64,000 bases of DNA. It comes from an uncultured Flavobacteriales bacterium (lineage in GTDB: Bacteria > Bacteroidota > Bacteroidia > Flavobacteriales_D > Crocinitomicaceae). Within the stretch, counting starts at the first letter, position 1. Each line of letters opens with the position of its first letter. The DNA lies in NCBI GenBank assembly GCA_905478665.1, contig CAJQJL010000029.1, forward strand, positions 240 through 64,239, given 5' to 3'. Position numbers and translations under genes: made by a program. Under the pieces are notes generated by a model that saw only the letters and a list, made by a program, of their open reading frames with translations, was not told where the DNA came from and did not search any database. This document shows, piece after piece, positions 32,921-44,452 of this stretch.

Positions 32921-33838
32921 ATGATTTCAGTTCAACAAATGCATTATATCCTCGTTTTGAGCGAAGAACTTCATTTTCAAAGAGCAAGCGAGCGGTGTTT
33001 TGTGACGCAACCCACACTTTCCATGCAAATCAAGAAAGCGGAAGAAACGTTGGAAGCACAGATTTTTGATCGTTCTCGGAATCCATTGGAATTGACAGGG
33101 TTCGGTAAAGATTTACTGTTAATCATTCGAGATACGCTCAATGAGTACGGGAAAATTTCAGAGTTGTCCAATAAGACGAAAGGAACGTATAAGGAGGAAA
33201 TCAGAATGGGGATTATTCCAACAGTTGCAGGATACATGCTGCCCGATTTGTATACTTCATGGAACGAGGAGTTGAGTGATGTACAATTGACGATTGAAGA
33301 GTTAAAAACGGAGGAAATTCTTAAAGCTTTTGACCAGAATAAACTAGATATTGGAATTCTTGCCGGGCCTGTTCAAGATCCCAGATTGCGCACTGTACCA
33401 CTTTATCAGGAGGAGATTAAAGTTTTTTACCCTGAAGGAAAAGGTAAATCAATCTCTGTTGAAGAGTTAAAGAGCGTGCATCCTTGGTTGCTAACATCGG
33501 GCAATTGTTTACGGACACAAATGATGAATTTTTGTGAGTTGAGAGACAATGTTAGGGATGAATGGGATTATGAAGGAGGAAACATCGAATTGCTGCAAAG
33601 AATGGTGCAATTACATGGTGGCTACACCTTAGTTCCAGAGAATTATATTGGTGAAAAATCGGATGACTACAAGCAGGTGAAATCAGTTATTGGTGGAGCG
33701 CCTGCAAGAGAAATAATTGCACTTACATCCAATAGAACAACAAAGTGGAGTACGCTTGAACGACTCATACGAAATGTACAGTTGAAGTATTCGCAAAGCG
33801 CTGATTCGATGAATTATCAGTTGCTCAACTGGCAGTAA
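32921..33838 (+). CDS. oxyR: LysR-family peroxide-sensing regulator OxyR
   Basis: 305 aa with N-terminal HTH (FQRASERCFVTQPTLSMQIKKAEETL). It is divergent from dps-ahpC. A Cys in the TSGNCLRTQ context resembles the OxyR sensing Cys. Confidence 0.75.
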   Translation: MISVQQMHYILVLSEELHFQRASERCFVTQPTLSMQIKKAEETLEAQIFDRSRNPLELTGFGKDLLLIIRDTLNEYGKISELSNKTKGTYKEEIRMGIIPTVAGYMLPDLYTSWNEELSDVQLTIEELKTEEILKAFDQNKLDIGILAGPVQDPRLRTVPLYQEEIKVFYPEGKGKSISVEELKSVHPWLLTSGNCLRTQMMNFCELRDNVRDEWDYEGGNIELLQRMVQLHGGYTLVPENYIGEKSDDYKQVKSVIGGAPAREIIALTSNRTTKWSTLERLIRNVQLKYSQSADSMNYQLLNWQ

Positions 33839-35036
33839 GATGCTTCCAGATTTTATCAGCAGCACCCTTGTTCTTCTCTACAAAACTGGTTGTCGTTGAA
33901 GAGATTTCTGCATGTCTTTCTTGAATTTTTTGATAGGCAAAATCAAACTCTTCTGTTGTTGAAACTGAAAAACCAATTCCCAGTTCAATGAACTGTTGAG
34001 CTTCTGGAAAACGCGAATGTTTTGGACCAAATATAACGGGGAGACCGAAAACAGCGGGCTCTAATATGTTGTGCAGACTCCCAGAAAATCCACCGCCGAT
34101 ATAAGCAAGGTCGCCGTATGAATATGCATTGGAAAGTTGCCCGATTGTATCCAAAATGAGCACTTTATTTTCAGAAAGATCCCTCCCGTCTGCCTCTGTG
34201 TATCGGATAGCATCTGGAATGTTCGAAAGAATACCTTTTACATGTGTTTCATCAACATTATGTGGCGCGATGAGGACTTTTCCACCTTGCTTATTAATCC
34301 AAGGAACAAGAATTTTTTCGTCTTCTGGCCATGAACTACCAACAATGAGCAATGGTTCTGAATTTTTAAAACTAGCGATGAGAGAATTTTCCTGCACATG
34401 TGCTTTATTTTCCAGAACTCGATCGAAACGACTGTCACCAGAAATAGACACGCGATCAATATGCACGGAATTCAACAGTTTTTTTGACTGTTCATTTTGA
34501 ACAAAGAACCAATCGAATTGTTCCAATGTCTTTCTAAAGAAGCCGCCATACCATTTAAAAAAACGATGATCTTCTCTGAATAACCCACTGATGTTATAAA
34601 TTTTAGAGCCACTTTTTTTCGCAGCGAAAATTAGATTCGACCAAAATTCATATTTAACGAAAATGATTTTTGACGGTTGAAAATGGTTTATAAAGTGCTT
34701 CGCGTTTTTGGGTGTGTCGAGTGGAATATACATTACATGATCTGCCTTATGATCACGTTTGTGTTGAAAGTTCATTCCTGATGGAGAGAAGAAGGTAACG
34801 AGCAAATAAGTTGATGGAGATTCCGCTTTTATTTTCGCCATGAGCGGAAGTCCCTGGTCAAATTCGCCCAATGACGCGCAATGGAACCAGATCACTTCTT
34901 TTCCTGTTACGTCAGGTAGATTACTAAATAAATTTTTTCTGCCTACTATCCAATCTTTGGCTTTGGTATTAAACAACGAAGTAATTCGAATAGCAATGCC
35001 ATAGAAGAAGATGCCTATGTTGTACAGAAAGTGCAT
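33825..35036 (-). CDS. kdtA: 3-deoxy-D-manno-octulosonic acid (Kdo) transferase
   Basis: 403 aa with the WFHCASLGEFDQGLPL motif and a GT30 fold pattern. Its 3' end overlaps the convergent oxyR by 14 nt. Confidence 0.85.
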   Translation of the reverse strand: MHFLYNIGIFFYGIAIRITSLFNTKAKDWIVGRKNLFSNLPDVTGKEVIWFHCASLGEFDQGLPLMAKIKAESPSTYLLVTFFSPSGMNFQHKRDHKADHVMYIPLDTPKNAKHFINHFQPSKIIFVKYEFWSNLIFAAKKSGSKIYNISGLFREDHRFFKWYGGFFRKTLEQFDWFFVQNEQSKKLLNSVHIDRVSISGDSRFDRVLENKAHVQENSLIASFKNSEPLLIVGSSWPEDEKILVPWINKQGGKVLIAPHNVDETHVKGILSNIPDAIRYTEADGRDLSENKVLILDTIGQLSNAYSYGDLAYIGGGFSGSLHNILEPAVFGLPVIFGPKHSRFPEAQQFIELGIGFSVSTTEEFDFAYQKIQERHAEISSTTTSFVEKNKGAADKIWKHLTAS

Positions 35037-35833
35037 TAATTGTAGTAAAATTCCTTAGGCATACGCTTGTAGATAGGAATCAGCCACGCTACTCGGAAAC
35101 CGTATTGAAAGTCCAAACGCATATCAGTAGATACTGGTGTGTCTGGCTGATCGAAGAATACAGTTCTACGGTTGTACGTAAATCCTTGCTGCGCATAAAA
35201 CCCACCGTAAAAATTGAAAACCCCATGATTGGCCATGAAGGAGTATCCCACAAATTCCTGAATGTTGAGTCCTGAAGTCAAGCGGTCGTAGCCTTTTCTG
35301 TAATCCAATTCGATTTGTGGTACTACGTGGTCTTGTGTTTCGATTCTCAACTTATGAGCGACATAACCAGCTCCAAGACTCAAATAGATTCCTGAATTCT
35401 TGTTTGGGCTTAGCACGGGAATAATTTTTCCAACATTTCCATTGACGTGAAATCCTCTCGCTGCAACACGTACTGAGGCTATATCACCATTGATATCCGT
35501 AATATTTCCTTTTGAATCTAACAAGTGATCAAACAACCCTTCTACTTTCACATCATTCCCGAAAATGAAACTTCCATCGACACCAAAAACCCAGTTCTTA
35601 TTTGTTTTGTAGCCTGCGAACATTCCCAAATGGTTCAGTAAACCGAAACGATCTGCCAAATCCCCACCCGTCCAGTTGAGTCCATAATGAACACTAATCC
35701 ACGGAGTTCCAATTACGGAGTCGCTAACGTTTCGTTGTGCGTTACCATTGAAAGAGAGGAGTATTACAAAAAGTACTAGACCAGATAAAGAGCGTATATT
35801 CATTAGTTTTCGAGTGTTCATGCAGTTCTCCAC
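35036..35833 (-). CDS. Hypothetical outer-membrane beta-barrel protein
   Basis: 265 aa with a signal peptide (...LVLFVILLSFNGNAQ), alternating-pattern beta strands and a C-terminal aromatic-rich end (EFYYN). Confidence 0.4.
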   Translation of the reverse strand: MENCMNTRKLMNIRSLSGLVLFVILLSFNGNAQRNVSDSVIGTPWISVHYGLNWTGGDLADRFGLLNHLGMFAGYKTNKNWVFGVDGSFIFGNDVKVEGLFDHLLDSKGNITDINGDIASVRVAARGFHVNGNVGKIIPVLSPNKNSGIYLSLGAGYVAHKLRIETQDHVVPQIELDYRKGYDRLTSGLNIQEFVGYSFMANHGVFNFYGGFYAQQGFTYNRRTVFFDQPDTPVSTDMRLDFQYGFRVAWLIPIYKRMPKEFYYN

Positions 35834-35930
35834 TTAAGATTGGGGCTAATTTACGGTTTTTATGCCTTTTCAATGGGTGTAAACCCTTCAACACTCTTCT
35901 TTATTGTCTCAAATAACAATTATTATGATT

Positions 35931-37091
35931 TTACGGTGCTTTCCGCTTCAATTTCCCAAATAACCAAATAAACCTGGAGAACACATGATTGAGGAAAAAT
36001 AGGCTATCCGGAAAGGCGAATATTTGCCAGTTTTTTGGCCGAACGTTTCGGGAAAATATACTGCCAATTAGCCCTCGAATACCACTGATAGAATAATGAA
36101 CCTTGTGGTTATACAGCGTAGTTCTCCATCGACTTTTTTTGCGATCCATTGATGTGTTTGCAGCGATTTCCCGAAGTGAAATCTGGACAATTCTTTTTGA
36201 AAAACGATCCGCATCTTTCGTAATCTTTTCTGGAACATCAAAACCATAGAGTTCAGACAGTAGGAGCAGGGATGCATTCAAGCAAACACGTGCTTCTGAG
36301 ATTTCGGTAGCTGCATAGAGGGCGTCAATTTCATCGAGTGATATCTGTCCAAAAAGACGGTGTAAATCGGTCAACCACTGAAGGCGAAAAAAGCTATGCA
36401 AAGCACCGTGCATGCACAGATACTGTAGTTGATGTTCCTTCGATAATGTACGAATCGCACCACCAGCGAAGGGGATAACTGTTGATTTAGACCAAAGCTC
36501 TTCCGCGGAGATTGAGTTTCCTTTCGAGGAACTGAGCTTCCAATGGAGTTCAAGCAATACGTTCTCATCAGAATGATAGAGCTCCATATGGTGATAATGT
36601 TTGACAATCGCCTGTTTCTGCTTTGGTGTTGAAAATTTTGTCAAGAGTTCATACCCAAGTTCCTTTAAAATGGCCAGTGACGGATCAAGTTGATCTACCC
36701 GAATAAAGATGTCCAGATCGCGTGAAGTTCGCTCACTTGGATCGTTGTAAATCTCTTGACTCAATACAGGTCCCTTGAGCGCTAGATGGTCAATATTTTG
36801 GCTCGAAAACGCCTTATTGATTTTGATCAATTCGGCAGCAAACTTTAATTGGGTAAACTTGTTCGCACTGTAAATTCCATTGAGTTTCTCTTGTAAACCT
36901 CCTTCAGAAAAAGTGGACAACGGGCCTCTTACTTGCGAAATGATCCGATGCGTTTGAATTAATTCGATGAGCTTTGTTTCGCTGATACCTGCTAGTTGCG
37001 TAGAATCTGTGGGGCCCTTGTTGGAAAGACAATTTAAAAGAAGCTGGAGCTCTTTAGAAAATGAAACGCTGCTATTTGGATGTGAAGCCAT
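35931..37091 (-). CDS. NTP_transf_5-like nucleotidyltransferase (lasso-peptide tailoring candidate)
   Basis: The ORF-track version extends to 37172 and overlaps PqqD. The Met at 37091 (MASHPNSS...) lies 12 nt after the PqqD stop. LALKGPVL...SRDLDIFI and ELHWKL match the pattern of the uncharacterised nucleotidyltransferase family seen in RiPP clusters. Confidence 0.65.
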   Translation of the reverse strand: MASHPNSSVSFSKELQLLLNCLSNKGPTDSTQLAGISETKLIELIQTHRIISQVRGPLSTFSEGGLQEKLNGIYSANKFTQLKFAAELIKINKAFSSQNIDHLALKGPVLSQEIYNDPSERTSRDLDIFIRVDQLDPSLAILKELGYELLTKFSTPKQKQAIVKHYHHMELYHSDENVLLELHWKLSSSKGNSISAEELWSKSTVIPFAGGAIRTLSKEHQLQYLCMHGALHSFFRLQWLTDLHRLFGQISLDEIDALYAATEISEARVCLNASLLLLSELYGFDVPEKITKDADRFSKRIVQISLREIAANTSMDRKKSRWRTTLYNHKVHYSISGIRGLIGSIFSRNVRPKNWQIFAFPDSLFFLNHVFSRFIWLFGKLKRKAP

Positions 37092-37102
37092 AGGTGAGGT
37101 GG

Positions 37103-37402
37103 CTAAGTTACTTCGTTCACAAGTTTCATCTGAATCAACTCTTCCAAAAACAGAGTGACTTCCTGCGTGCAAGTAGCACGGTCAACGGCATATTCGTTAA
37201 GTAGTTCATCGCAAATTTCCTCTTTCGTTTTTGGTGTGTCGATGTATTCCCAAATACTCGAAGCGATTGAATTCATTGAGAAATATTTACCAAGATCGAT
37301 GTCTATCATTACCAACTCATCGTCTAATTTGCTGGCTACAGTATTCGGATTTTTGGCATATTTCTTCATTCTACTCTTCATCGTTAACCAGTAACTCATC
37401 AA
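37103..37402 (-). CDS. PqqD-family RiPP recognition element (lasso B1 protein)
   Basis: KNPNTVASKLDDELVMIDIDLGKYFSMNSIASSIWEYIDTPKTKEEICDELLNEYAVD...FLEELIQMKLV is a textbook PqqD/B1 pattern. The true start is probably Met at 37381 or 37369. Confidence 0.85.
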   Translation of the reverse strand: MMSYWLTMKSRMKKYAKNPNTVASKLDDELVMIDIDLGKYFSMNSIASSIWEYIDTPKTKEEICDELLNEYAVDRATCTQEVTLFLEELIQMKLVNEVT

Positions 37403-37901
37403 AGGACTCCTTCGATTTAAAGTACCGAACGAGTAATATACTAAGTAAATTTGTTTTCGCTCGAAGTACCTTGAACTCTTTTGAAGTGTGTTCTTTATTG
37501 GTGTTCACAAACTCAAGTACTTCTCGATAGCTTTTCGTTGTTTTACCCAATAGCTCTTCATACAACTCAAAAATTTCCTGCCGCTGACTCTTCGCTTCTT
37601 TTATGATGGAAAGGGCATTTGACTTTTCAATTTCGCCGCTGCTGAAGTTCTTGAGGAGTTTGCACTTGAAACTTGAACAAATCTTTGGCTTTTGTTTATC
37701 ATAAATGGTACATTTCTCATTAAAATGTGGGCAGGGCAGTTTGAAATAATCGCTTCCATCTATGTCGAATCTACTTTCTTCAAAATGGCCTGAAACCTTC
37801 TCGCCTGTACTTAAAGAAGCATACTCAAAAAGGGTATGATCACAGCAAAAACCACATGAGACGCAAATGGTTTGTTCATCTTGAGGAGGGTAGTTCGTCA
37901 T
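37371..37901 (-). CDS. YkgJ-family cysteine-cluster (CxxCxxCC) protein
   Basis: 176 aa with CVSCGFCC, then CPHFNEKCTIYDKQKPKICSSFKC (eight Cys in the UPF0153 arrangement), followed by a helical C-terminal half. Confidence 0.7.
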   Translation of the reverse strand: MTNYPPQDEQTICVSCGFCCDHTLFEYASLSTGEKVSGHFEESRFDIDGSDYFKLPCPHFNEKCTIYDKQKPKICSSFKCKLLKNFSSGEIEKSNALSIIKEAKSQRQEIFELYEELLGKTTKSYREVLEFVNTNKEHTSKEFKVLRAKTNLLSILLVRYFKSKESFDELLVNDEE

Positions 37902-37918
37902 GTGATTGAAATTAGCAA

Positions 37919-39727
37919 CTATTTTTTAGAGTGAAAAGAAATTGTGAATTCATGAACCATCTTCACATAGGGAATGACCAAGAGAAGCTCCCTCGACAGT
38001 TTTTCTTCACTTTCGAGCGACTGTGTTATGTCCTCTTCCAAGGAATCAAAATCAAAGAAATTCAGGTACTCATTTTCTCGAAAGACATCCAATTCTTTAG
38101 AATATTCCCAATTGGCCTCCTGAAGAATATCATTAAACACTTTTCCGAACGCTGGATCGCCCTTTGACGGGAGGTAATTGACGTCATCAACGAGCCACTC
38201 TTTTCCAATTTCACGAATGAGATTCCTGTCTAATTTATCTTTAACAAAAAAGGTCGTCGGAAGTGTCAATACAAATTCAATAATTCGTTTGTCTAGCAAC
38301 GGGTAGCGATATTCCACGCCATTTCTCTGCCCTTTGGTATACCAATCTTCGCAGCGTTGAGCCAAGTGTTTATATTCGAGAAGGCCAATATGAATTCCTC
38401 TTCTTTTGGTATACGTGGAGCGTTTAATAGGATTCAACTTATTTGAGGGCATCCCTTTTTTTATGTATTTATGTAAGAATGGAGCAGTTTTGAAAATGAG
38501 GTAAGGAATTGTTCTGCTTGGAAAAAAAACATTCCCTACAAGTGAACGCACAAAGGCTTTCTTTTTAGGTAGCGGATGAATTTGAAGATACTTTCCCCAA
38601 TTTCCTCTCCAAAAAAGGTCATATTCCAGATAAGGTTTCCCCATGCTAATAAATTCATCTCCTCCCCAACCACTGAATAGAAGGTTCACGTTCTTTTCGT
38701 TGGCAGCCTTCAGTATGTTTTGCTCAAAAGTTGATTCGCTAGGAGCTCGCCAATCTTTCAAATGTGCGTGGTAGTCATCAATGGTGAAATTTGAGTAAAC
38801 GATTTTAATGTCACTCTTTTCGGCTTGTTGTTGAATGAGCTTGCGTTCATCAAAATTCAACTGATCCGCATCTATTTTGGTATCAGGACTCCAGGTGAAA
38901 CCGAAAAACAGCGCCTGATCTTTATACGCCATTCGGGAAATGGCTGAAACTAGACAAGAATCCAAGCCCCCGCTGATATGCGTTCCTGCTGTATAACGCT
39001 TATCACTTCTGTTGTGAACACTGGAGAGAACGATTTTGCGAAGTTCTTTTATAGCCTCGTCGTAGTTCCATTTTTTTTGTTTGATGCGTTCAGGAAACCA
39101 ATATTTTTTTTGCGTATGACCGTTTACATCAATCTCGGCATAGCTACCTGGTACAATTTTGACAACGTTCTTATTCGGTGTAAAGGCGAAATTCTCTTCA
39201 AAATGATAAAATGAGGAAATGATGTACTCGTGATCGATTTTTTCGTTACCAAAAAGGGCTTTTGTCATTCCCATCGTGTCCGAACTAAAGAAGAGTGCAT
39301 CGTCTTTTGTCGTAAATGAAAGTGGCATAATCCCCACATGGTCTTTTACCAAATAGAATTTGTCACACGAAAAATCGAAAATACAAATGGAAAATGCACC
39401 ATTGAACCCTTCTATAAAAGATAACTTATCGGTTGCAAATTTTGCAGCGATGATCTCTGGTAAGTTTGTTTGATTAGCACCAATACGTTCAGGGTTGTAA
39501 ATTTGTCCTTGAACGATGACAACACGTTCATTTTGTTCGTCAATATACCATGGTTGATATTCAGGGTGCGGAATGCGTGTGTCGCGAAGAAAGAACGTTC
39601 TGAGTCCTTTATAACTAAAGCTGGTTAATTCGGCCTCATCCCAATTGACGCCTGAAAGTAGTTTGTTTAGGGAATCATCCTGATTTTTGGAAAACTCACC
39701 AGTATATGAAACTGCTCCAAGAATCAT
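37919..39727 (-). CDS. Asparagine-synthetase-like lasso peptide cyclase (C protein)
   Basis: 602 aa with PP-loop GTHISGGLDSCLVSAI. The N-terminal Ntn-like domain lacks the catalytic Cys2 (MILGAV...). Its start codon abuts the precursor stop (TAAATG). Confidence 0.85.
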   Translation of the reverse strand: MILGAVSYTGEFSKNQDDSLNKLLSGVNWDEAELTSFSYKGLRTFFLRDTRIPHPEYQPWYIDEQNERVVIVQGQIYNPERIGANQTNLPEIIAAKFATDKLSFIEGFNGAFSICIFDFSCDKFYLVKDHVGIMPLSFTTKDDALFFSSDTMGMTKALFGNEKIDHEYIISSFYHFEENFAFTPNKNVVKIVPGSYAEIDVNGHTQKKYWFPERIKQKKWNYDEAIKELRKIVLSSVHNRSDKRYTAGTHISGGLDSCLVSAISRMAYKDQALFFGFTWSPDTKIDADQLNFDERKLIQQQAEKSDIKIVYSNFTIDDYHAHLKDWRAPSESTFEQNILKAANEKNVNLLFSGWGGDEFISMGKPYLEYDLFWRGNWGKYLQIHPLPKKKAFVRSLVGNVFFPSRTIPYLIFKTAPFLHKYIKKGMPSNKLNPIKRSTYTKRRGIHIGLLEYKHLAQRCEDWYTKGQRNGVEYRYPLLDKRIIEFVLTLPTTFFVKDKLDRNLIREIGKEWLVDDVNYLPSKGDPAFGKVFNDILQEANWEYSKELDVFRENEYLNFFDFDSLEEDITQSLESEEKLSRELLLVIPYVKMVHEFTISFHSKK

Positions 39728-39868
39728 TTAGCTTCCTGGTCCCTTTCCTATTTCTTTTTTGAAAATCCATACCAACCACGAGGTATCCTCCTTTATGTTA
39801 AGGACTTTAACTTCAGGCGTTTTCCACTCTTTTTTTTCAGAGTTTGGTATATTCTTATCTGTATGCAT
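39728..39868 (-). CDS. Candidate lasso peptide precursor (46 aa), not in the ORF track
   Basis: Manual reverse-complement translation gives MHTDKNIPNSEKKEWKTPEVKVLNIKEDTSWLVWIFKKEIGKGPGS*. The leader carries a W-x-x-P-x-V...T-x pattern like the YxxPxL...Tx motif bound by B1 proteins. There is a single acidic residue (E39) in the putative core and a C-terminal Ser. It sits between B2 and C. Confidence 0.6.
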   Translation of the reverse strand: MHTDKNIPNSEKKEWKTPEVKVLNIKEDTSWLVWIFKKEIGKGPGS

Positions 39869-39956
39869 ATGTCTACATCTAATTACGCTAAGTTACGACT
39901 TTTTTTGAGAAGTTGGCGATGACGGTATTCACCTCGTTACTACGGTGTTTTGAATA

Positions 39957-40367
39957 CTAAAACTGGTGTAACTCCACGAAGTCCTGTTCTTTAGGGATGA
40001 TTTCGTGTTCTCCAGCCTTTAGCCAGGCATGCGCAATGAGCTGTTGTTTATCGTTCTTTTTTACCCCTAGAAAAGCCGTTGAACTAATTTTTCGCTTGTT
40101 AAGTATCCATCGACTGGTTAGTGTATTTACAAGGCATGTGTGCTTCCACCAAACCAGTTTGTTTGCTCTGAAAATGGCTTTCTTTATTTCCAAAACTTCT
40201 TGCTCGCTAATTTCCGCTTCATTCCCTTTGTTTTTAAAAAAAGAGGCTACTTTTTTAAAACTAAAAATGAGAAGTAAAAACTTCGAACAATACATTTTGA
40301 AGAGGGTTTCACGAAAAAGGGCGCGTTCCTTCCGCTCAAGCTGATAATATTTTCGAAGATTACCCAT
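39957..40367 (-). CDS. Transglutaminase-like lasso leader peptidase (B2 protein)
   Basis: From Met at 40367 (MGNLRKYY...; ATGGGTAA overlap with the kinase stop) the protein is 136 aa. The Cys in WKHTCLVNTLTSRWIL and His in LIAHAWLKAGEHEI fit the B2 catalytic Cys/His pattern. Confidence 0.8.
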   Translation of the reverse strand: MGNLRKYYQLERKERALFRETLFKMYCSKFLLLIFSFKKVASFFKNKGNEAEISEQEVLEIKKAIFRANKLVWWKHTCLVNTLTSRWILNKRKISSTAFLGVKKNDKQQLIAHAWLKAGEHEIIPKEQDFVELHQF

Positions 40368-41202
40368 TTGTTTGAGGTTTGACGATAAGCGATTCAATCT
40401 TGTCAAGAAAAGCTGGATAGTCCAGTCTCTCTGGCCTTGTAACGGCAAAAATCGGAGTGGATTCGCACAGTTTGACCAGAAGAGCAAAATAACGTTCTTG
40501 CGTGGAAGGCATGCCTTGAAGATATTCTTTCCGATAGATCTGATTCAACATCGTATGGAATTTTTCTGCACCTTTTAGTTCTTCCACAGTGAGTTCTTTA
40601 CTGTTGTCATAGCTCAAAAGAATGATCGAGCCTAGCGAATGTAGGCTTTTGTCGCGATCCATCTTTATGAAATATTTGTCCATTTGATTCTGAACGGGGG
40701 AGACAACAGCGTCGTCTAATTCGAGTTTTTTCACACTATCTCCCCACAACTTAATACTGTCAGAAATCGGAGAAATCAAAAGCTCATTTTCGCTTTCAAT
40801 AATTGGAGTAATGTCATCCGTTAAAAAATGGGCACCTTTCTTACAGAATGATGCGGTCAATGTCGATTTTCCCGCTCCTGAAGCACCACATACAAGAACA
40901 CCCGTGTCATTATATAGAAAACTACTCCCATGGATGGCCAGTCGCGCTTTTTGGTGGAATAGGGCGCCCAATACTGATCCGTTGAGGTAGAGTTCAATCG
41001 ACTTCGGATCAGGGTTTCCAATTGGAGCAACCAGAACCTGTTCACCCTCACGCGCATAAAAGCGCGCAACATCTTCAATTGTAAGTAAAAATTCCCGTTC
41101 GTTTAATTGGGCATATGCGTCTTGAAAAAGTACTTCGCTTATTTCTGGTACTTTTTTTACCAGATCGATCTCAATAGCATCAAGTAAGAATCGAAGGTTC
41201 AT
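40360..41202 (-). CDS. HPr-kinase-like serine kinase (lasso precursor kinase candidate)
   Basis: 280 aa with LAIHGSSF...GVLVCGASGAGKSTLT...FLTDDITPI, which is the HprK C-terminal-domain P-loop pattern. It starts 5 nt after the wzc stop. Confidence 0.75.
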   Translation of the reverse strand: MNLRFLLDAIEIDLVKKVPEISEVLFQDAYAQLNEREFLLTIEDVARFYAREGEQVLVAPIGNPDPKSIELYLNGSVLGALFHQKARLAIHGSSFLYNDTGVLVCGASGAGKSTLTASFCKKGAHFLTDDITPIIESENELLISPISDSIKLWGDSVKKLELDDAVVSPVQNQMDKYFIKMDRDKSLHSLGSIILLSYDNSKELTVEELKGAEKFHTMLNQIYRKEYLQGMPSTQERYFALLVKLCESTPIFAVTRPERLDYPAFLDKIESLIVKPQTNG

Positions 41203-41207
41203 ATCTT

Positions 41208-43589
41208 TTAGGAACGGCGCTTGAATAATTTAGAGTGCCATTTGGTCTTTTCTTGCACACCATATCCATATCCATAGCCGTAACCGTATCCATATCTGCC
41301 AGAGGAACTTGTTTCAACCGCATTAATAACAACTCCAATATTTTTGACCTTGCCCTCGTCTCTCAATTGTTCGGGTATAGCGAGCAACTTCTTCTCGATG
41401 TAATTTGCACGTGCAACATAGATAAACGCATCGGCAAGGTTACTAACAAGTAGGGTGTCTGTTACCAAGCCCACGGGCGCCGTATCCACGATAATAATGT
41501 CAAAATTTTCTTTCAGATATGCGAAGAGTTGTTGGATTTCATCGCGCATCAAAATTTCTGCAGGGTTGGGTGGTGTAACTCCAGATGATAGGAAGTATAA
41601 ACCTTCTGTTACAGGCGAGGGCACAAATAAGGAATCAATGGGTAGTGAATCATCAAGCACGTAGTCTGTGACACCTTTGCTTTTTGGAAGACCAGCATAC
41701 TCAAACAATTTTGGGGCACGTAAGTCAAGTTCAACACAGACTGTTTTTTTACCAGTTAGCGCATAAGATGTACCGAGGTTCAGAGCAACAAATGATTTAC
41801 CTTCTTTTGCAATGGTAGATGTTGTAAGAATGATCTTCCCTGCTCCAGTATCTGAACCAAGAACAAAGCTTGTATTTGTTCTAAGAATACGAAATGCCTC
41901 CGCAGCTGAAGTTGTATTCCCCTTTGAAATCACAAGTTTTTGACTGCCATCTACTTTTGGGATATTTGCCAAATGAGGGAGATTATGTTTTTCCAAATCT
42001 TCTCGGCCTTTGACCTTATTGTCTAGTAGGTCACGAAGATAAATGGAAGAGAACGGAATAAACAGCCCGAAGAATATTGCCAATGCGTAGTGTATTTTTT
42101 TGTTGGGAGATGTTGCTTTTCCATTGCTGAATGCTGATTCAATGATTTTTGAATTCCCCTCCGTTACGGCTGATGCGATTTCGTTCTCTTCACGTTTTTG
42201 CAACAAGTAAACGTAGAGCGATTCCTTTACAAGCTGCTGTCGTTCAATTGAACGTAATACACGCTTGTGCTTTGGCAGATTTGCGATGTCTTGACCAAGA
42301 CCAGTGTCCATGGCACGTAAAACATCAACCTCCATTTTTAGTGAAGATTTGAGATTTATTAAACTCGCATTTAGACTTGATTTGATGCTCTGAAGGTCAC
42401 TTTCCACTTTTATTACTGCTGGGTTCCGCCCACTGGACTGACTCAGCAAGCGCTTTTTTTCAAGAGCCAATTTATTGTATTCATGCGCCGCATCGTTAAT
42501 TGAAATATCCTCAAAACCTAAATTGGTCGGCAATAGGTTGTCATTTCCATGCTGTTCTATGAGGTATTCATGCAGAAAGTTGACTAGCTCTAGTTGGATT
42601 TGAGCATCAATTAATTTCTTTTCATTCACGAGTGTACGATCGTAAAGTGATTTCTCATTCATTAGAATATCAGAGAAATCATATTGGGTCATGTATTTTT
42701 CTCCGTCAATTTCAACGTCTGAAAGTTCATCCGCAATAGCTCCTATTCGTTCATTAATAAATGTGGTAGTATTTTTGTATACTGCTTTTTGATCTCGAAT
42801 CGTCCGTTCGGTGTGCTCGATTATTAAGGTGTCGAGAAAATCGTTGTTCTTTTCAATTACAGGTCCGCTGATGCTCAATTGGAGAATATCAACGTTCTCA
42901 TTCATCGGTTCAATTTTTAATTTCGATTGAAAAATACTAACGGTAGTTTCTATCGGAACCATGGTAACCGCAATTTGAATTGATCCATGTTTTGCCTTAT
43001 AGAAATCAGTTTTGTGGATGTAGAATTTTCCTATTGAAGCTTGCAAAGTGTCACCAAAAGAGTAGGTTTTATTTCCAAAGGTTTTGGAATCAATGAACTT
43101 GAATGATTTTGCATTGAGAACCTCGATATTGAAAGTGGTGGTTGTCTTTAATTCAAGCGAATCATTTAGACGAATAATTTCTATAGGCGAATTTTTATAA
43201 AATTCCTTACGTTCAATACCCGTCTTCGAACCGATGAGGTAATATTGGGTATTCAGGTCGAGCTTTTCAATAACGCTACGGAGTAAAGGTCTGGAGCTTA
43301 AAACTTCCCGTTCGTTATAAAGGTTGTTGTACCTGCCAATACCATCAAACATACCAAGATCTTGAAACGCTGACAGCTCTGAGTAAGCACCCGTCTTTTC
43401 AAATTGAATCAACAATTTTGTTTTTGATTCATAGATTTTGGGTGTATATCGCAAAACAAAGAATGCAACTGTCAGGGTGGTAAGCAACGAAAGTGCAAAC
43501 CATTTCCAGCGAGAGGTATATTTTAGTAGTAGCTCCCTTAAATTAAGCTCGTCATCGAACTCGTGATTTTTTTCTCGTTTACTCCCCAA
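41208..43589 (-). CDS. wzc: Polysaccharide co-polymerase / tyrosine autokinase (Wzc/PCP-2a)
   Basis: 793 aa with the two-TM Wzz-like domain and coiled coils. Cytoplasmic P-loop TSTIAKEGKSFVALNLG with IIIVDTAP, and a C-terminal Tyr cluster RYGYGYGYGYGYG. Confidence 0.88.
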   Translation of the reverse strand: MGSKREKNHEFDDELNLRELLLKYTSRWKWFALSLLTTLTVAFFVLRYTPKIYESKTKLLIQFEKTGAYSELSAFQDLGMFDGIGRYNNLYNEREVLSSRPLLRSVIEKLDLNTQYYLIGSKTGIERKEFYKNSPIEIIRLNDSLELKTTTTFNIEVLNAKSFKFIDSKTFGNKTYSFGDTLQASIGKFYIHKTDFYKAKHGSIQIAVTMVPIETTVSIFQSKLKIEPMNENVDILQLSISGPVIEKNNDFLDTLIIEHTERTIRDQKAVYKNTTTFINERIGAIADELSDVEIDGEKYMTQYDFSDILMNEKSLYDRTLVNEKKLIDAQIQLELVNFLHEYLIEQHGNDNLLPTNLGFEDISINDAAHEYNKLALEKKRLLSQSSGRNPAVIKVESDLQSIKSSLNASLINLKSSLKMEVDVLRAMDTGLGQDIANLPKHKRVLRSIERQQLVKESLYVYLLQKREENEIASAVTEGNSKIIESAFSNGKATSPNKKIHYALAIFFGLFIPFSSIYLRDLLDNKVKGREDLEKHNLPHLANIPKVDGSQKLVISKGNTTSAAEAFRILRTNTSFVLGSDTGAGKIILTTSTIAKEGKSFVALNLGTSYALTGKKTVCVELDLRAPKLFEYAGLPKSKGVTDYVLDDSLPIDSLFVPSPVTEGLYFLSSGVTPPNPAEILMRDEIQQLFAYLKENFDIIIVDTAPVGLVTDTLLVSNLADAFIYVARANYIEKKLLAIPEQLRDEGKVKNIGVVINAVETSSSGRYGYGYGYGYGYGVQEKTKWHSKLFKRRS

Positions 43590-43592
43590 AAT

Positions 43593-44387
43593 TTATTTAA
43601 CAATTAGCACCAGCGTCGATACGATCAACGAGGTCGCAGAAATGACTATTCCCCCTGCTGAACGCAGAATGGACGCATCATATCGCGCTTTTCTATTCGG
43701 TTCTACGTAAACTACGTCATTCTGTTTCAAATAGTACACGGGAGATTGGAAAATTGCCGTAGTTGTAAGGTCGATTCGATATTCTTTTCTTTCACCGTTT
43801 TCATGTCGAATGACCAGCACATTCTTGCGTTCTCCTGTTATTTTTAAATCTTTTGCAATTCCAATAGCTTCAAGAATTGAGAGTCGTTCATTGGGAACAG
43901 AAAACGTCCCAGGGTTTTTTACTTCACCAAGCACTGTGATTTTAAAGTTGAGTATTCGTAGCGAGACACTAGGGGAATCGAGATATTCTCCAACAACTCT
44001 TTCAACTTCTTTTACCGCTGCATTACGATTTAAGCCCGCAAGTTTCACCTTCCCTACAATGGGAAGTGAAACCGTACTGTCTGGAGCAACCAAATAACCA
44101 TAAGTCGCGGGAATTCCATTTTCGTACGAACCTATTTGATTTCCTTGTCTCACAAGTTCTGCTTGGTTGAAAGGAGCCGCGATTTCATGATCAGCACCCG
44201 TTATTTCAATGGAAAGAACGTCTCCAATTTCTAAATGTGGTGTAAGGTATTGATCAATGTTTTCAATGCTACCATCTCCCGCCTGAAAATAAACAAGCTT
44301 TTTACGATTAACACAAGATCCAAAGATTAGAGGCGCGATCAGTAGTAGAGTGATCATCATTCTCGTACTTGACATAGTTATCAACAT
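43593..44387 (-). CDS. wza: Polysaccharide export outer-membrane lipoprotein (Wza/OPX)
   Basis: Poly_export pattern (GDVLSIEI...) followed by an SLBB-like domain (ITVLGEVKNPG), with lipobox LIFGSC. The ORF-track start (44444) would leave 8 bp to the divergent wbaP, so an internal Met (44387/44375/44360) is more plausible. Confidence 0.82.
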   Translation of the reverse strand: MLITMSSTRMMITLLLIAPLIFGSCVNRKKLVYFQAGDGSIENIDQYLTPHLEIGDVLSIEITGADHEIAAPFNQAELVRQGNQIGSYENGIPATYGYLVAPDSTVSLPIVGKVKLAGLNRNAAVKEVERVVGEYLDSPSVSLRILNFKITVLGEVKNPGTFSVPNERLSILEAIGIAKDLKITGERKNVLVIRHENGERKEYRIDLTTTAIFQSPVYYLKQNDVVYVEPNRKARYDASILRSAGGIVISATSLIVSTLVLIVK

Positions 44388-44400
44388 TTTAATGTAAAAC

Positions 44401-44408
44401 CAAAAATA
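44401..44408 (-). promoter_or_regulatory. Candidate -7 box TATTTTTG for wza-wzc (and possibly the lasso operon)
   Basis: Plus-strand CAAAAATA is minus-strand TATTTTTG (TAnnTTTG), 14 nt upstream of the internal Met at 44387. Confidence 0.3.
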
Positions 44409-44452
44409 GTAGAATAATCCACGGTAAGGTAAATCTTCATACATTTATCACG

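What the first reader, a model, noticed from the sequence alone, without database searches (positions are those of the whole stretch)
40360..41202. Kinase, nucleotidyltransferase and a C-terminal Ser predict a phosphorylated (possibly phospho-glycosylated) lasso peptide
The operon opens with an HPr-kinase-like protein and closes with an NTP_transf_5-like nucleotidyltransferase (35931..37091). The candidate precursor ends in ...GPGS with a C-terminal Ser.

From what I recall, in paeninodin-type clusters an HPrK homolog phosphorylates the C-terminal Ser of the precursor. In the pseudomycoidin system a nucleotidyltransferase-fold protein further decorates the phosphorylated peptide with hexose.

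All three elements occur together here, in a phylum different from those characterised systems. This is independent support for the precursor call. It also predicts a specific, testable modification.
Basis: partly seen in the sequence, partly recalled or inferred. Interest (0 to 1): 0.65.

Follow-up and report, generated by a model that had tools for sequence, protein, structure and literature searches.

The report
Kinase-tailored lasso peptide cluster, Bacteroidota
This is an intact gene cluster for a small knotted ("lasso") peptide whose last serine is very probably phosphorylated, and perhaps further decorated, by two accessory enzymes; the same chemistry is already known from Bacillus-type bacteria, and this is an uncharacterised marine Bacteroidota version.

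Summary
A seven-gene set lies on the minus strand at 35931-41202:
- K, an HprK-like kinase
- B2, the leader protease
- A, the 46-aa precursor
- C, the lactam cyclase
- X, a CxxCxxCC protein
- B1, a PqqD-type leader-binding protein (RRE)
- N, an NTP_transf_5 nucleotidyltransferase

The precursor splits as leader ...EWKTPEVKVLNIKEDTS and core WLVWIFKKEIGKGPGS. This gives Thr at -2, a Trp1-Glu9 ring, and Ser16 (precursor Ser46) as the only hydroxyl residue in the core.

K carries the catalytic H-G-G-G-K-S-D-D motif of proven lasso kinases, with identical spacing. The profile of its family matches a pseudomycoidin-type Bacillus kinase over its full length (165 bits). It matches true HPr kinases only over a 56-residue P-loop stretch (26 bits).

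N is 29% identical to the PsmN-like protein and keeps its two essential aspartates.

In related loci, a leader-only HMM found 69 precursor-like ORFs, of which 64 end in Ser. Of 63 scored, 60 have Asp/Glu at core position 7-9.

Phosphorylation of Ser46 is likely. Hexosylation by N is plausible but unproven, even in the model system.

Novelty is a new member of a known kind, in a phylum where I found no characterised example. Interest is moderate.

The parts
40360..41202 (-). K: HprK-like lasso-precursor kinase, 280 aa. Catalytic motif: H91 (40930-40932), P-loop G106-S113 (40864-40887), D129-D130 (40813-40818).
   Evidence: Pfam and NCBIfam hits. These residues are invariant in 38 homologues. 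Their spacing equals that of BsfK H148-G163-G166-G168-K169-S170-D186-D187 (PMC10368454). The AF2 model has pLDDT 94 and a PEPCK/HprK fold. It is 28% identical to the PsmK-like kinase over 228 aa. The family profile scores 165 bits against the PsmK-like kinase.
39957..40367 (-). B2: leader peptidase (transglutaminase-like Cys protease), 136 aa from the ATG at 40367. It overlaps the end of K by 8 nt.
   Evidence: lasso_biosyn_B2 at 2.9e-15 and Transglut_core3 at 2.5e-13. The start was chosen by homology with the called 136-aa genes in L001 and L003. It is 27% identical to the PsmB2-like protein.
39728..39868 (-). A: 46-aa precursor. Leader residues 1-30 map to 39779-39868. Core WLVWIFKKEIGKGPGS maps to 39731-39778. 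The C-terminal Ser46 codon is 39731-39733 and the stop codon is 39728-39730.
   Evidence: Translation. Leader HMM hit at 4.6e-7, the only significant hit in the window. The Thr(-2) and Glu9 pattern is shared with 60 of 63 family precursors. The core shows 9 synonymous against 1 nonsynonymous codon change versus L003.
37919..39727 (-). C: lasso macrolactam synthetase (Asn-synthetase-like), 602 aa. Its ATG directly follows the stop codon of A.
   Evidence: Asn_synthase at 7.5e-20, GATase_7, and the NCBIfam lasso cyclase model at 1.1e-33. The SGGLDS motif is visible in the translation.
37371..37901 (-). X: CxxCxxCC (PF03692) protein of unknown role, 176 aa, with eight invariant cysteines.
   Evidence: Pfam 4.1e-5, above the gathering score. 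Invariant C13, C16, C19, C20, C57, C64, C75 and C80. Present next to C in 12 of 41 full-flank loci. No structural match.
37103..37402 (-). B1: PqqD-like leader-recognition protein (RRE), 99 aa.
   Evidence: PqqD at 2.2e-18 and lasso_PqqD_Bac at 2.2e-21. It is 31% identical to the PsmB1-like protein.
35931..37091 (-). N: NTP_transf_5 nucleotidyltransferase-fold protein, 386 aa from the ATG at 37091. The D125-x-D127 motif maps to 36711-36719.
   Evidence: PF14907 at 8.6e-45. It is 29% identical to the PsmN-like protein over 252 aa, with D125/D127 aligned to PsmN D134/D136. K106, G107, R121, D125, D127, E181, H183, H228 and D242 are invariant in 42 homologues.

Best explanation
This is a paeninodin/pseudomycoidin-type lasso peptide biosynthetic cluster in a marine Bacteroidota genome, probably a relative of Crocinitomicaceae.

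Proposed pathway:
1. The 46-aa precursor is bound through its W-x-x-P leader motif by B1.
2. [quoted passage not shown]
3. B2 cuts after Thr(-2)-Ser(-1).
4. C joins the new Trp1 amine to the Glu9 side chain. The product is a 16-residue peptide with a 9-residue ring and a 7-residue tail.
5. N then adds a further group to the phosphate. By analogy with PsmN this would be one or two hexoses.

Shown here: gene content, motifs, homology to the characterised system, and family-wide conservation of the C-terminal Ser.

Inferred: every chemical step, the order of the steps, the identity of the group added by N, and the role of X.
For: - Gene set. All core lasso genes plus K and N are intact and contiguous.
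- K catalytic motif. K has the residues shown by mutagenesis to matter in lasso kinases, at identical spacing, and they are invariant in 38 relatives (PMC10368454).
- K homology. The family profile aligns to a PsmK-like kinase end to end at 165 bits, E 1.6e-43. Against HprK/P structures it reaches 26 bits over 56 residues.
- K model scores. The PsmK-like kinase gives the same sub-threshold pattern against HprK models as K does.
- N homology. The PsmN-like protein in the Bacillus locus is also PF14907. It aligns with N at 29% identity, including the two Asp whose mutation abolished hexosylation (PMC6993621).
- Leader. The leader resembles PsmA and paeninodin leaders: EW.[ST]P..., then Thr at -2.
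- Family survey. A leader-only HMM found 69 ORFs in 57 loci and 64 end in Ser. The five exceptions are truncated or lack a start codon. Of 63 scored, 60 have Asp/Glu at core position 7-9.
- Single target. Ser16 is the only Ser, Thr or Tyr in the core.
- Selection. The core is under purifying selection: 9 synonymous to 1 nonsynonymous codon change, against 8 to 14 in the leader.
- Expression. Metatranscriptome contigs at 99% identity or more touch K, B2, C and X.
Against: - No chemistry is shown here.
- BsfK, a related lasso kinase, phosphorylates core Ser3 rather than the C-terminus (PMC10368454).
- PsmN's activity is known only from expression in E. coli. It has never been reconstituted, and it might only supply a substrate for a host glycosyltransferase (PMC6993621, PMC11912497).
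- N is absent from 14 of 41 full-flank kinase loci, so it is not obligatory for the family.
- The cluster has no dedicated ABC exporter, unlike the Aequorivita (L006) and Bacillus (L086) versions.
- The tree node joining the Bacteroidota and Firmicutes kinases has only 66% bootstrap. It also rests partly on machine-read partial sequences.
- The transcript evidence comes from assembled contigs of metatranscriptomes, which can contain DNA.
Confidence: 0.6

Rival explanations
1. K phosphorylates Ser46 as above, but N does not glycosylate. Instead it acts as a true nucleotidyltransferase, capping the phosphoserine with a nucleotide monophosphate. Alternatively it makes an activated intermediate that another enzyme uses.
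For: N belongs to a nucleotidyltransferase-fold family with a conserved DxD plus a third carboxylate, E181. PsmN lacks any glycosyltransferase motif and was never active in vitro. Its authors allow that it may only supply a substrate for a host enzyme (PMC6993621, PMC11912497).
Against: The only experimental product data for this family are +162 and +324 Da adducts that match hexoses to within 0.5 ppm (PMC6993621).
Confidence: 0.22
2. K modifies a residue other than the C-terminal Ser, for example a Ser or Thr in the leader. This would parallel BsfK, which targets core Ser3.
For: BsfK shows that site choice can differ among lasso kinases (PMC10368454). The leader contains Thr3, Ser10, Thr17, Thr29 and Ser30.
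Against: The core has no other hydroxyl residue. The C-terminal Ser is kept in all 64 complete family precursors, although their cores are otherwise unrelated. K groups with the C-terminal-Ser kinases rather than with the BsfK group, which forms a separate clade with 91% bootstrap.
Confidence: 0.07
3. The kinase is an ordinary carbon-catabolite HPr kinase/phosphorylase, or the cluster is a decaying remnant that makes nothing.
For: Remnants do exist. A Crocinitomicaceae MAG keeps K-B2-B1-N but has lost A, C and X. A Bacillus psm-like locus has a stop codon in the kinase P-loop.
Against: K scores 28.7 bits against TIGR00679, whose cutoff is 240. It covers only positions 7-66 of 171 in PF07475, and no hit to an HprK N-terminal-domain model was returned by the Pfam scan. 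All seven ORFs in the window are intact. The core peptide is identical in a relative whose kinase is only 71% identical.
Confidence: 0.03

Closest known systems
Pseudomycoidin cluster psmCAKB1B2ND of Bacillus pseudomycoides (Zyubko et al. 2019, PMC6993621)
   Same: Both have K, N, B1, B2, C and A. K is 28% identical and N 29% identical to the proteins of a psm-like Bacillus locus (L086). The kinase H/K/D/D residues and the PsmN D134/D136 residues are conserved. The leader motif EW.[ST]P...T-x, the 9-residue ring and the C-terminal Ser also match.
   Different: The phylum is Bacteroidota rather than Firmicutes. The gene order is K-B2-A-C-X-B1-N. There is an extra CxxCxxCC gene and no ABC exporter. 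The ring starts with Trp1 rather than Ala1, and the core is 16 aa rather than 24 aa, hydrophobic and cationic instead of acidic.
Paeninodin (PadeK), ThcoK and SyanK phosphorylated or polyphosphorylated lasso peptides (Zhu et al. 2016, summarised in PMC9266682 and PMC8498205)
   Same: An HprK-like kinase sits within a split-B lasso cluster and the precursor has a conserved C-terminal Ser. The region before the catalytic His, LY.LG..GA.L.QRKILPLHGS, is shared with PadeK, ThcoK and PsmK.
   Different: Identity is only 26-36% over the 96-residue comparable stretch. The paeninodin cluster lacks N. The characterised examples are from Firmicutes and Proteobacteria.
Bradymonas sediminis bsf cluster (BsfK and BsfN; PMC10368454)
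   Same: It is a Gram-negative lasso cluster with both K and N, and the kinase catalytic motif and spacing are identical.
   Different: BsfK phosphorylates core Ser3, and its precursor ends in Asp with Ile at -2. The BsfK group forms a separate clade in the tree.
HPr kinase/phosphorylase (HprK/P; PDB 1jb1, 1kkl, 1ko7, 3tqf)
   Same: The P-loop, the DD motif and the PEPCK-like fold are shared.
   Different: Sequence similarity is confined to about 56 residues. K scores far below the family cutoffs. It has a different N-terminal half and sits in a RiPP context.

Membership tests
Lasso peptide biosynthetic gene cluster (split-B type) | Asn-synthetase-like cyclase C with an ATP pyrophosphatase motif | tested here: met
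   Asn_synthase at 7.5e-20 and the lasso cyclase model NF033535 at 1.1e-33. The latter is below that model's narrow cutoff. SGGLDS is present.
Lasso peptide biosynthetic gene cluster (split-B type) | B2 transglutaminase-like leader protease and B1 PqqD-like RRE | tested here: met
   NF033537 lasso_biosyn_B2 scores 56.8 bits, above its cutoff of 33. PqqD is at 2.2e-18. lasso_PqqD_Bac scores 75.8 bits against a cutoff of 80.
Lasso peptide biosynthetic gene cluster (split-B type) | Short precursor with a leader (Y/W)xxP motif, Thr at -2, and Asp/Glu at core position 7-9 | tested here: met
   The precursor has WKTP, Thr29-Ser30 before the cut, and a Trp1...Glu9 ring. The same layout holds in 60 of 63 family precursors.
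Lasso peptide biosynthetic gene cluster (split-B type) | The product is a threaded macrolactam | not testable with these tools
   This needs MS, NMR or protease and heat stability tests on the expressed product.
Lasso-precursor kinases of the PadeK/ThcoK/PsmK type | Conserved His-Lys-Asp-Asp catalytic residues, with the P-loop Gly and Ser | tested here: met
   H91, G106, G109, G111, K112, S113, D129 and D130 are invariant in 38 homologues. Their spacing is identical to the BsfK motif.
Lasso-precursor kinases of the PadeK/ThcoK/PsmK type | Full-length homology to a characterised member rather than to HprK/P | tested here: met
   The family profile scores 165.5 bits against the PsmK-like kinase over profile positions 9-277. 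It scores 25.9 bits over positions 89-144 against HprK/P. The NJ grouping with the Firmicutes kinases has 66/100 bootstrap.
Lasso-precursor kinases of the PadeK/ThcoK/PsmK type | Encoded beside lasso genes, with a precursor ending in Ser | tested here: met
   The window cluster shows this. So do 36 of 41 full-flank loci with lasso genes and 64 of 69 leader hits ending in Ser.
Lasso-precursor kinases of the PadeK/ThcoK/PsmK type | Phosphorylates the C-terminal Ser side chain of the linear precursor | not testable with these tools
   This needs an in vitro or co-expression assay with an S46A control.
PsmN-type tailoring nucleotidyltransferase (PF14907) | Membership of Pfam NTP_transf_5, with the catalytic Asp pair equivalent to PsmN D134/D136 | tested here: met
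   PF14907 scores 153.7 bits against a cutoff of 31.2. D125 and D127 align to D134 and D136 and are invariant in 42 sequences.
PsmN-type tailoring nucleotidyltransferase (PF14907) | Needed for hexose addition to the phosphoserine | not testable with these tools
   This is known only from E. coli expression of psm (PMC6993621).
Bona fide HPr kinase/phosphorylase | Scores above the curated cutoffs of TIGR00679 and PF07475 with full domain coverage | tested here: not met
   TIGR00679 scores 28.7 bits against a cutoff of 240. PF07475 scores 30.6 bits against 33.3 and covers only positions 7-66 of 171.

The most novel reading that the evidence does not exclude
The C-terminal phospho(-glycosyl)serine is not a mere decoration. 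It would be the steric lock that keeps this very short peptide threaded, because the 7-residue tail IGKGPGS has no bulky plug residue for a 9-membered ring. The conserved CxxCxxCC protein X would be a new, metal-dependent accessory factor of lasso maturation specific to this Bacteroidota lineage. If so, modification-dependent threading would be a general design rule of a family found in about 150 species.
Probability: 0.2. Interest if true: 0.7.

Novelty: new member of a known kind. Interest (0 to 1): 0.42.

Why it matters
Kinase- and nucleotidyltransferase-tailored lasso peptides have been characterised only in Firmicutes and Proteobacteria. This cluster belongs to a large, coherent and untested Bacteroidota lineage.
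- The kinase scan found relatives in 148 species-level genomes.
- The kinase profile reaches 2,237 clusters at 50% identity with E below 1e-30. That count includes the Firmicutes-type relatives.

The window's peptide is a convenient test case.
- It is small, at 16 residues.
- It has a single possible phosphorylation site in the core.
- The expected masses are simple to calculate.

The cluster also offers another homologue on which to try to establish what the PsmN-type enzyme really does, which remains open. It adds an unassigned conserved cysteine-rich gene as well.

It does not change how lasso biosynthesis is understood.

Tried and rejected
- **Single-protein genome scan.** A scan of species genomes with the kinase alone found nothing. 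An alignment-based scan was needed.
- **Key papers not held.** The two primary papers (Zhu 2016 JBC; Tietz 2017) are not in the library. What they report is taken from reviews and later papers. I cannot exclude that their supplementary tables already list such Bacteroidetes clusters.
- **Fragment query.** A protein search with a 97-aa PsmK fragment returned only short fragments. I recovered a near-full PsmK-like gene from the DNA of one hit, reading through its single in-frame stop.
- **Loose precursor regex.** My first pattern gave many false positives. I replaced it with a leader-only HMM.
- **Promoter and terminator scan.** It found no more sites than shuffled sequence. It is not designed for Bacteroidota promoters.
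- **Protein X.** The structure model was mediocre (pLDDT 72.5) and had no fold match.
- **Taxonomy.** Cluster look-ups gave no organism names for the window's proteins. Taxonomy is inferred from relatives and synteny.
- **Polysaccharide linkage.** Adjacency to Wza/Wzc genes occurs only in a minority of loci: 8 carry a Wzc-like gene and 10 a Wza-like gene. These are mainly the window's near relatives, including all that share its chromosomal site. I therefore rejected a general functional link.
Full report
**What is there**

Seven contiguous ORFs lie on the minus strand between 41202 and 35931.

| Gene | Coordinates | Size | Evidence |
|---|---|---|---|
| K | 41202-40360 | 280 aa | Hpr_kinase_C at 2.9e-7, 30.6 bits (gathering score 33.3), profile positions 7-66 of 171 only. 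Best NCBIfam hit is HprK_rel_A TIGR04352 at 2.4e-10. True HprK model TIGR00679 gives 28.7 bits against a cutoff of 240. |
| B2 | 40367-39957 | 136 aa | lasso_biosyn_B2 at 56.8 bits, above its cutoff |
| A | 39868-39728 | 46 aa | no family hit |
| C | 39727-37919 | 602 aa | Asn_synthase; SGGLDS motif |
| X | 37901-37371 | 176 aa | PF03692 CxxCxxCC |
| B1 | 37402-37103 | 99 aa | PqqD; lasso_PqqD_Bac at 2.2e-21 |
| N | 37091-35931 | 386 aa | PF14907 NTP_transf_5 at 8.6e-45 |

The genes abut or overlap. The stop codon of A is directly followed by the ATG of C. Upstream lie Wzc- and Wza-like polysaccharide export genes. Downstream lie a 265-aa signal-peptide protein, KdtA and a LysR regulator. Only one such cluster and one precursor occur in the 64-kb window.

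**The precursor**

The sequence is MHTDKNIPNSEKKEWKTPEVKVLNIKEDTS|WLVWIFKKEIGKGPGS. The leader carries the W-x-x-P motif and Thr at -2. The core then has Trp1 and Glu9, giving a 9-residue ring, followed by a 7-residue tail that ends in Ser16. Ser16 is the only Ser, Thr or Tyr in the core.

Two metagenomic relatives have kinases only 71% and 58% identical. Their leaders are diverged, but their cores are identical or differ by one Ile to Leu change. Against the 58% relative, codon changes are as follows.

| Region | Codons | Synonymous | Nonsynonymous |
|---|---|---|---|
| Core | 16 | 9 | 1 |
| Leader | 30 | 8 | 14 |

This is the signature of a functional peptide.

**The kinase**

An alignment of 38 homologues has H91, G106, G109, G111, K112, S113, D129 and D130 invariant. 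These residues, at exactly this spacing, form the motif reported for lasso kinases: BsfK H148-G163-G166-G168-K169-S170-D186-D187. Mutagenesis in that study showed that all but G166 and G168 matter for activity (PMC10368454).

The AlphaFold model (pLDDT 94) matches PEP carboxykinases and HprK/P, the expected fold class.

I recovered a pseudomycoidin-like Bacillus locus, L086, with the order C-A-K-B1-B2-N-D.
- Its kinase is 98% identical to the published PsmK fragment. In this strain it carries a stop at the P-loop Ser codon.
- Window K aligns to it at 28% identity over 228 residues.
- The Bacteroidota family profile scores it at 165.5 bits (E 1.6e-43 at library size) over profile positions 9-277.
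- The same profile reaches crystallised HprK/P at only 25.9 bits over 56 residues.
- The PsmK-like kinase gives the same sub-threshold pattern against HprK models as K does.

I also built an NJ tree on about 96 columns. It includes partial PadeK, ThcoK, BaceK, PapoK, SyanK, PsmK and BsfK-group sequences, machine-read from a supplementary figure. Bootstrap support was as follows.

| Grouping | Support /100 |
|---|---|
| Bacteroidota clade | 100 |
| Firmicutes clade | 100 |
| Bacteroidota + Firmicutes | 66 |
| BsfK group, separate | 91 |
| All lasso kinases apart from HprK | 63 |

The tree alone is only moderately supported; the profile scores are the stronger evidence.

**The nucleotidyltransferase**

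The PsmN-like protein of L086 is also PF14907, at 9.6e-59. N aligns to it at 29% identity over 252 residues. N's D125 and D127 fall on PsmN D134 and D136, the pair whose mutation abolished hexose addition (PMC6993621). In 42 N homologues K106, G107, R121, D125, D127, E181, H183, H228 and D242 are invariant.

**Family-wide test**

An alignment-based scan of one genome per species found 148 genomes with a kinase relative. I kept 79 loci. Nearly all are labelled Bacteroidota, including Balneolaceae, and the best is only 42-45% identical to K.

Among the 41 loci with full flanks:

| Content next to the kinase homologue | Loci |
|---|---|
| At least one lasso gene | 36 |
| C + B1 + B2 | 30 |
| N | 27 |
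| C + B1 + B2 + N | 25 |
| X | 12 |

I built an HMM from leader segments only, so it carries no information about the core.
- It found 69 ORFs in 57 loci, and 64 of them end in Ser.
- The five exceptions are four truncated leader-only ORFs in Balneolaceae and one ORF without a start codon.
- Cutting after Thr(-2)-x, 60 of 63 precursors have Asp/Glu at core position 7-9.
- The first core residue is mostly Ser or Gly. Trp1 occurs only in the window's own clade.

The C-terminal Ser is thus the one core feature conserved across otherwise unrelated cores. The reviews report the same for the Firmicutes and Proteobacteria systems (PMC9266682, PMC8498205).

**Origin and expression**

The sequence occurs in marine metagenomes. 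The flanking genes are 59-71% identical to, and syntenic with, a Crocinitomicaceae MAG.

Contigs from two metatranscriptomes, at 99% identity or more, cover four pieces:
- the Wzc/K junction
- part of B2
- part of C
- the C/X junction

This is weak evidence of transcription, and such libraries can contain DNA.

**Mechanism and its limits**

The best-supported reading has four steps:
1. B1 binds the leader.
2. K phosphorylates Ser46 of the linear precursor.
3. B2 and C mature the peptide into a Trp1-Glu9 macrolactam.
4. N modifies the phosphate.

The order of steps 2 and 3 is taken from ThcoK, PadeK and SyanK, which act on linear precursors and not on folded lassos (PMC9266682, PMC8498205).

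What N adds is uncertain. The +162 and +324 Da adducts were seen only in E. coli, PsmN was never active in vitro, and its substrate is unknown (PMC6993621, PMC11912497).

BsfK shows that some relatives target core Ser3 (PMC10368454). Here no other hydroxyl exists in the core.

The tail IGKGPGS has no aromatic, Arg or His residue. Of 59 family tails, 22 lack F, W, Y, H and R altogether. This fits the suggestion by the pseudomycoidin authors that the bulky C-terminal group may lock the thread. That is inference only.

**Comparison and novelty**

In function and parts this is the paeninodin/pseudomycoidin kind. It differs in four respects:
- phylum
- gene order
- the extra gene X and the absence of an exporter
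- a short, hydrophobic and cationic core that starts with Trp

Searches of the open literature found no characterised Bacteroidota kinase-lasso peptide. Reviews describe the phosphorylated lasso clusters as Firmicutes and Proteobacteria systems. One paper cites the 2017 RODEO survey as naming Bacteroidetes an underexplored source of lasso peptides. The primary genome-mining papers could not be read, so prior listing of such clusters cannot be excluded.

**Verdict**

This is a new member of a known kind, of moderate interest.

Noticed in passing
window 37371-37901 (-): A conserved CxxCxxCC (PF03692) protein sits between C and B1. It has eight invariant cysteines. The same gene lies next to the cyclase in 12 of 41 full-flank kinase loci. 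I found no paper linking this domain to lasso peptides, and there is no structural match.
   Followed up: partly
L005 8001-10786 and L009 7001-9786 (Crocinitomicaceae MAG): At the same chromosomal site (Wza-Wzc ... 265-aa protein-KdtA-LysR), this relative keeps K, B2, B1 and N. It has lost the precursor, the cyclase and X. This looks like a decaying cluster.
   Followed up: partly
L046, L052, L057, L063, L068 (Balneolaceae MAGs), e.g. L057 6983-8291: These loci hold a kinase homologue and B1. In four of them (L046, L057, L063, L068) the two flank a tiny leader-only ORF (...KKEWQKPVIISLD*), some copies lacking an ATG. No B2, C or N lies nearby, and the same unrelated genes follow in several genomes. 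It could be a conserved remnant or a different use of the kinase plus RRE pair.
   Followed up: partly
L003 9580-9726: A second precursor-like ORF without an ATG lies between A and C in a 58%-identity relative. Its core is WIKIAGGKEIGKGHTS, with the same Trp1, Glu9, EIGKG and C-terminal Ser.
   Followed up: no
L086 8001-8930 (Bacillus psm-like locus); L087 8001-8501 (Paenibacillus roseipurpureus): The PsmK-like kinase has an in-frame stop at the P-loop Ser codon in one Bacillus assembly. In the Paenibacillus genome the kinase is truncated and B1, B2 and N are missing. Both loci, like the window, lie beside Wzz/tyrosine-kinase polysaccharide genes.
   Followed up: partly
window 41202-41208 and 40974-41261: K's start codon is 5 nt after the stop of the Wzc-like gene, and one metatranscriptome contig spans the junction. 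The lasso genes may be read through from the polysaccharide export operon.
   Followed up: partly
window 33825-44444 compared with L001, L003, L009: The lasso enzymes diverge much faster than their flanks. In L001, K is 71% identical against 92% for Wzc. In L003, K is 58% identical against 77% for Wzc. The core peptide stays the same or changes by one residue.
   Followed up: yes
window 35036-35833 (-): A 265-aa protein with a signal peptide and no Pfam hit lies between N and KdtA. It is 71-81% identical in relatives, including the one that has lost the precursor and cyclase, so it probably belongs to the KdtA neighbourhood rather than to the lasso cluster.
   Followed up: partly
window 35931-41202; L006 13563-15257: The window's cluster has no ABC exporter. 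The Aequorivita sinensis version ends with one, as does the Bacillus psm-like locus.
   Followed up: no
L051 and L054: A MAG labelled Deltaproteobacteria and one labelled Bacteroidales carry the same precursor and gene layout. The non-Bacteroidota labels among the hits (also Desulfobacterales and Porticoccaceae) may partly reflect binning errors.
   Followed up: no
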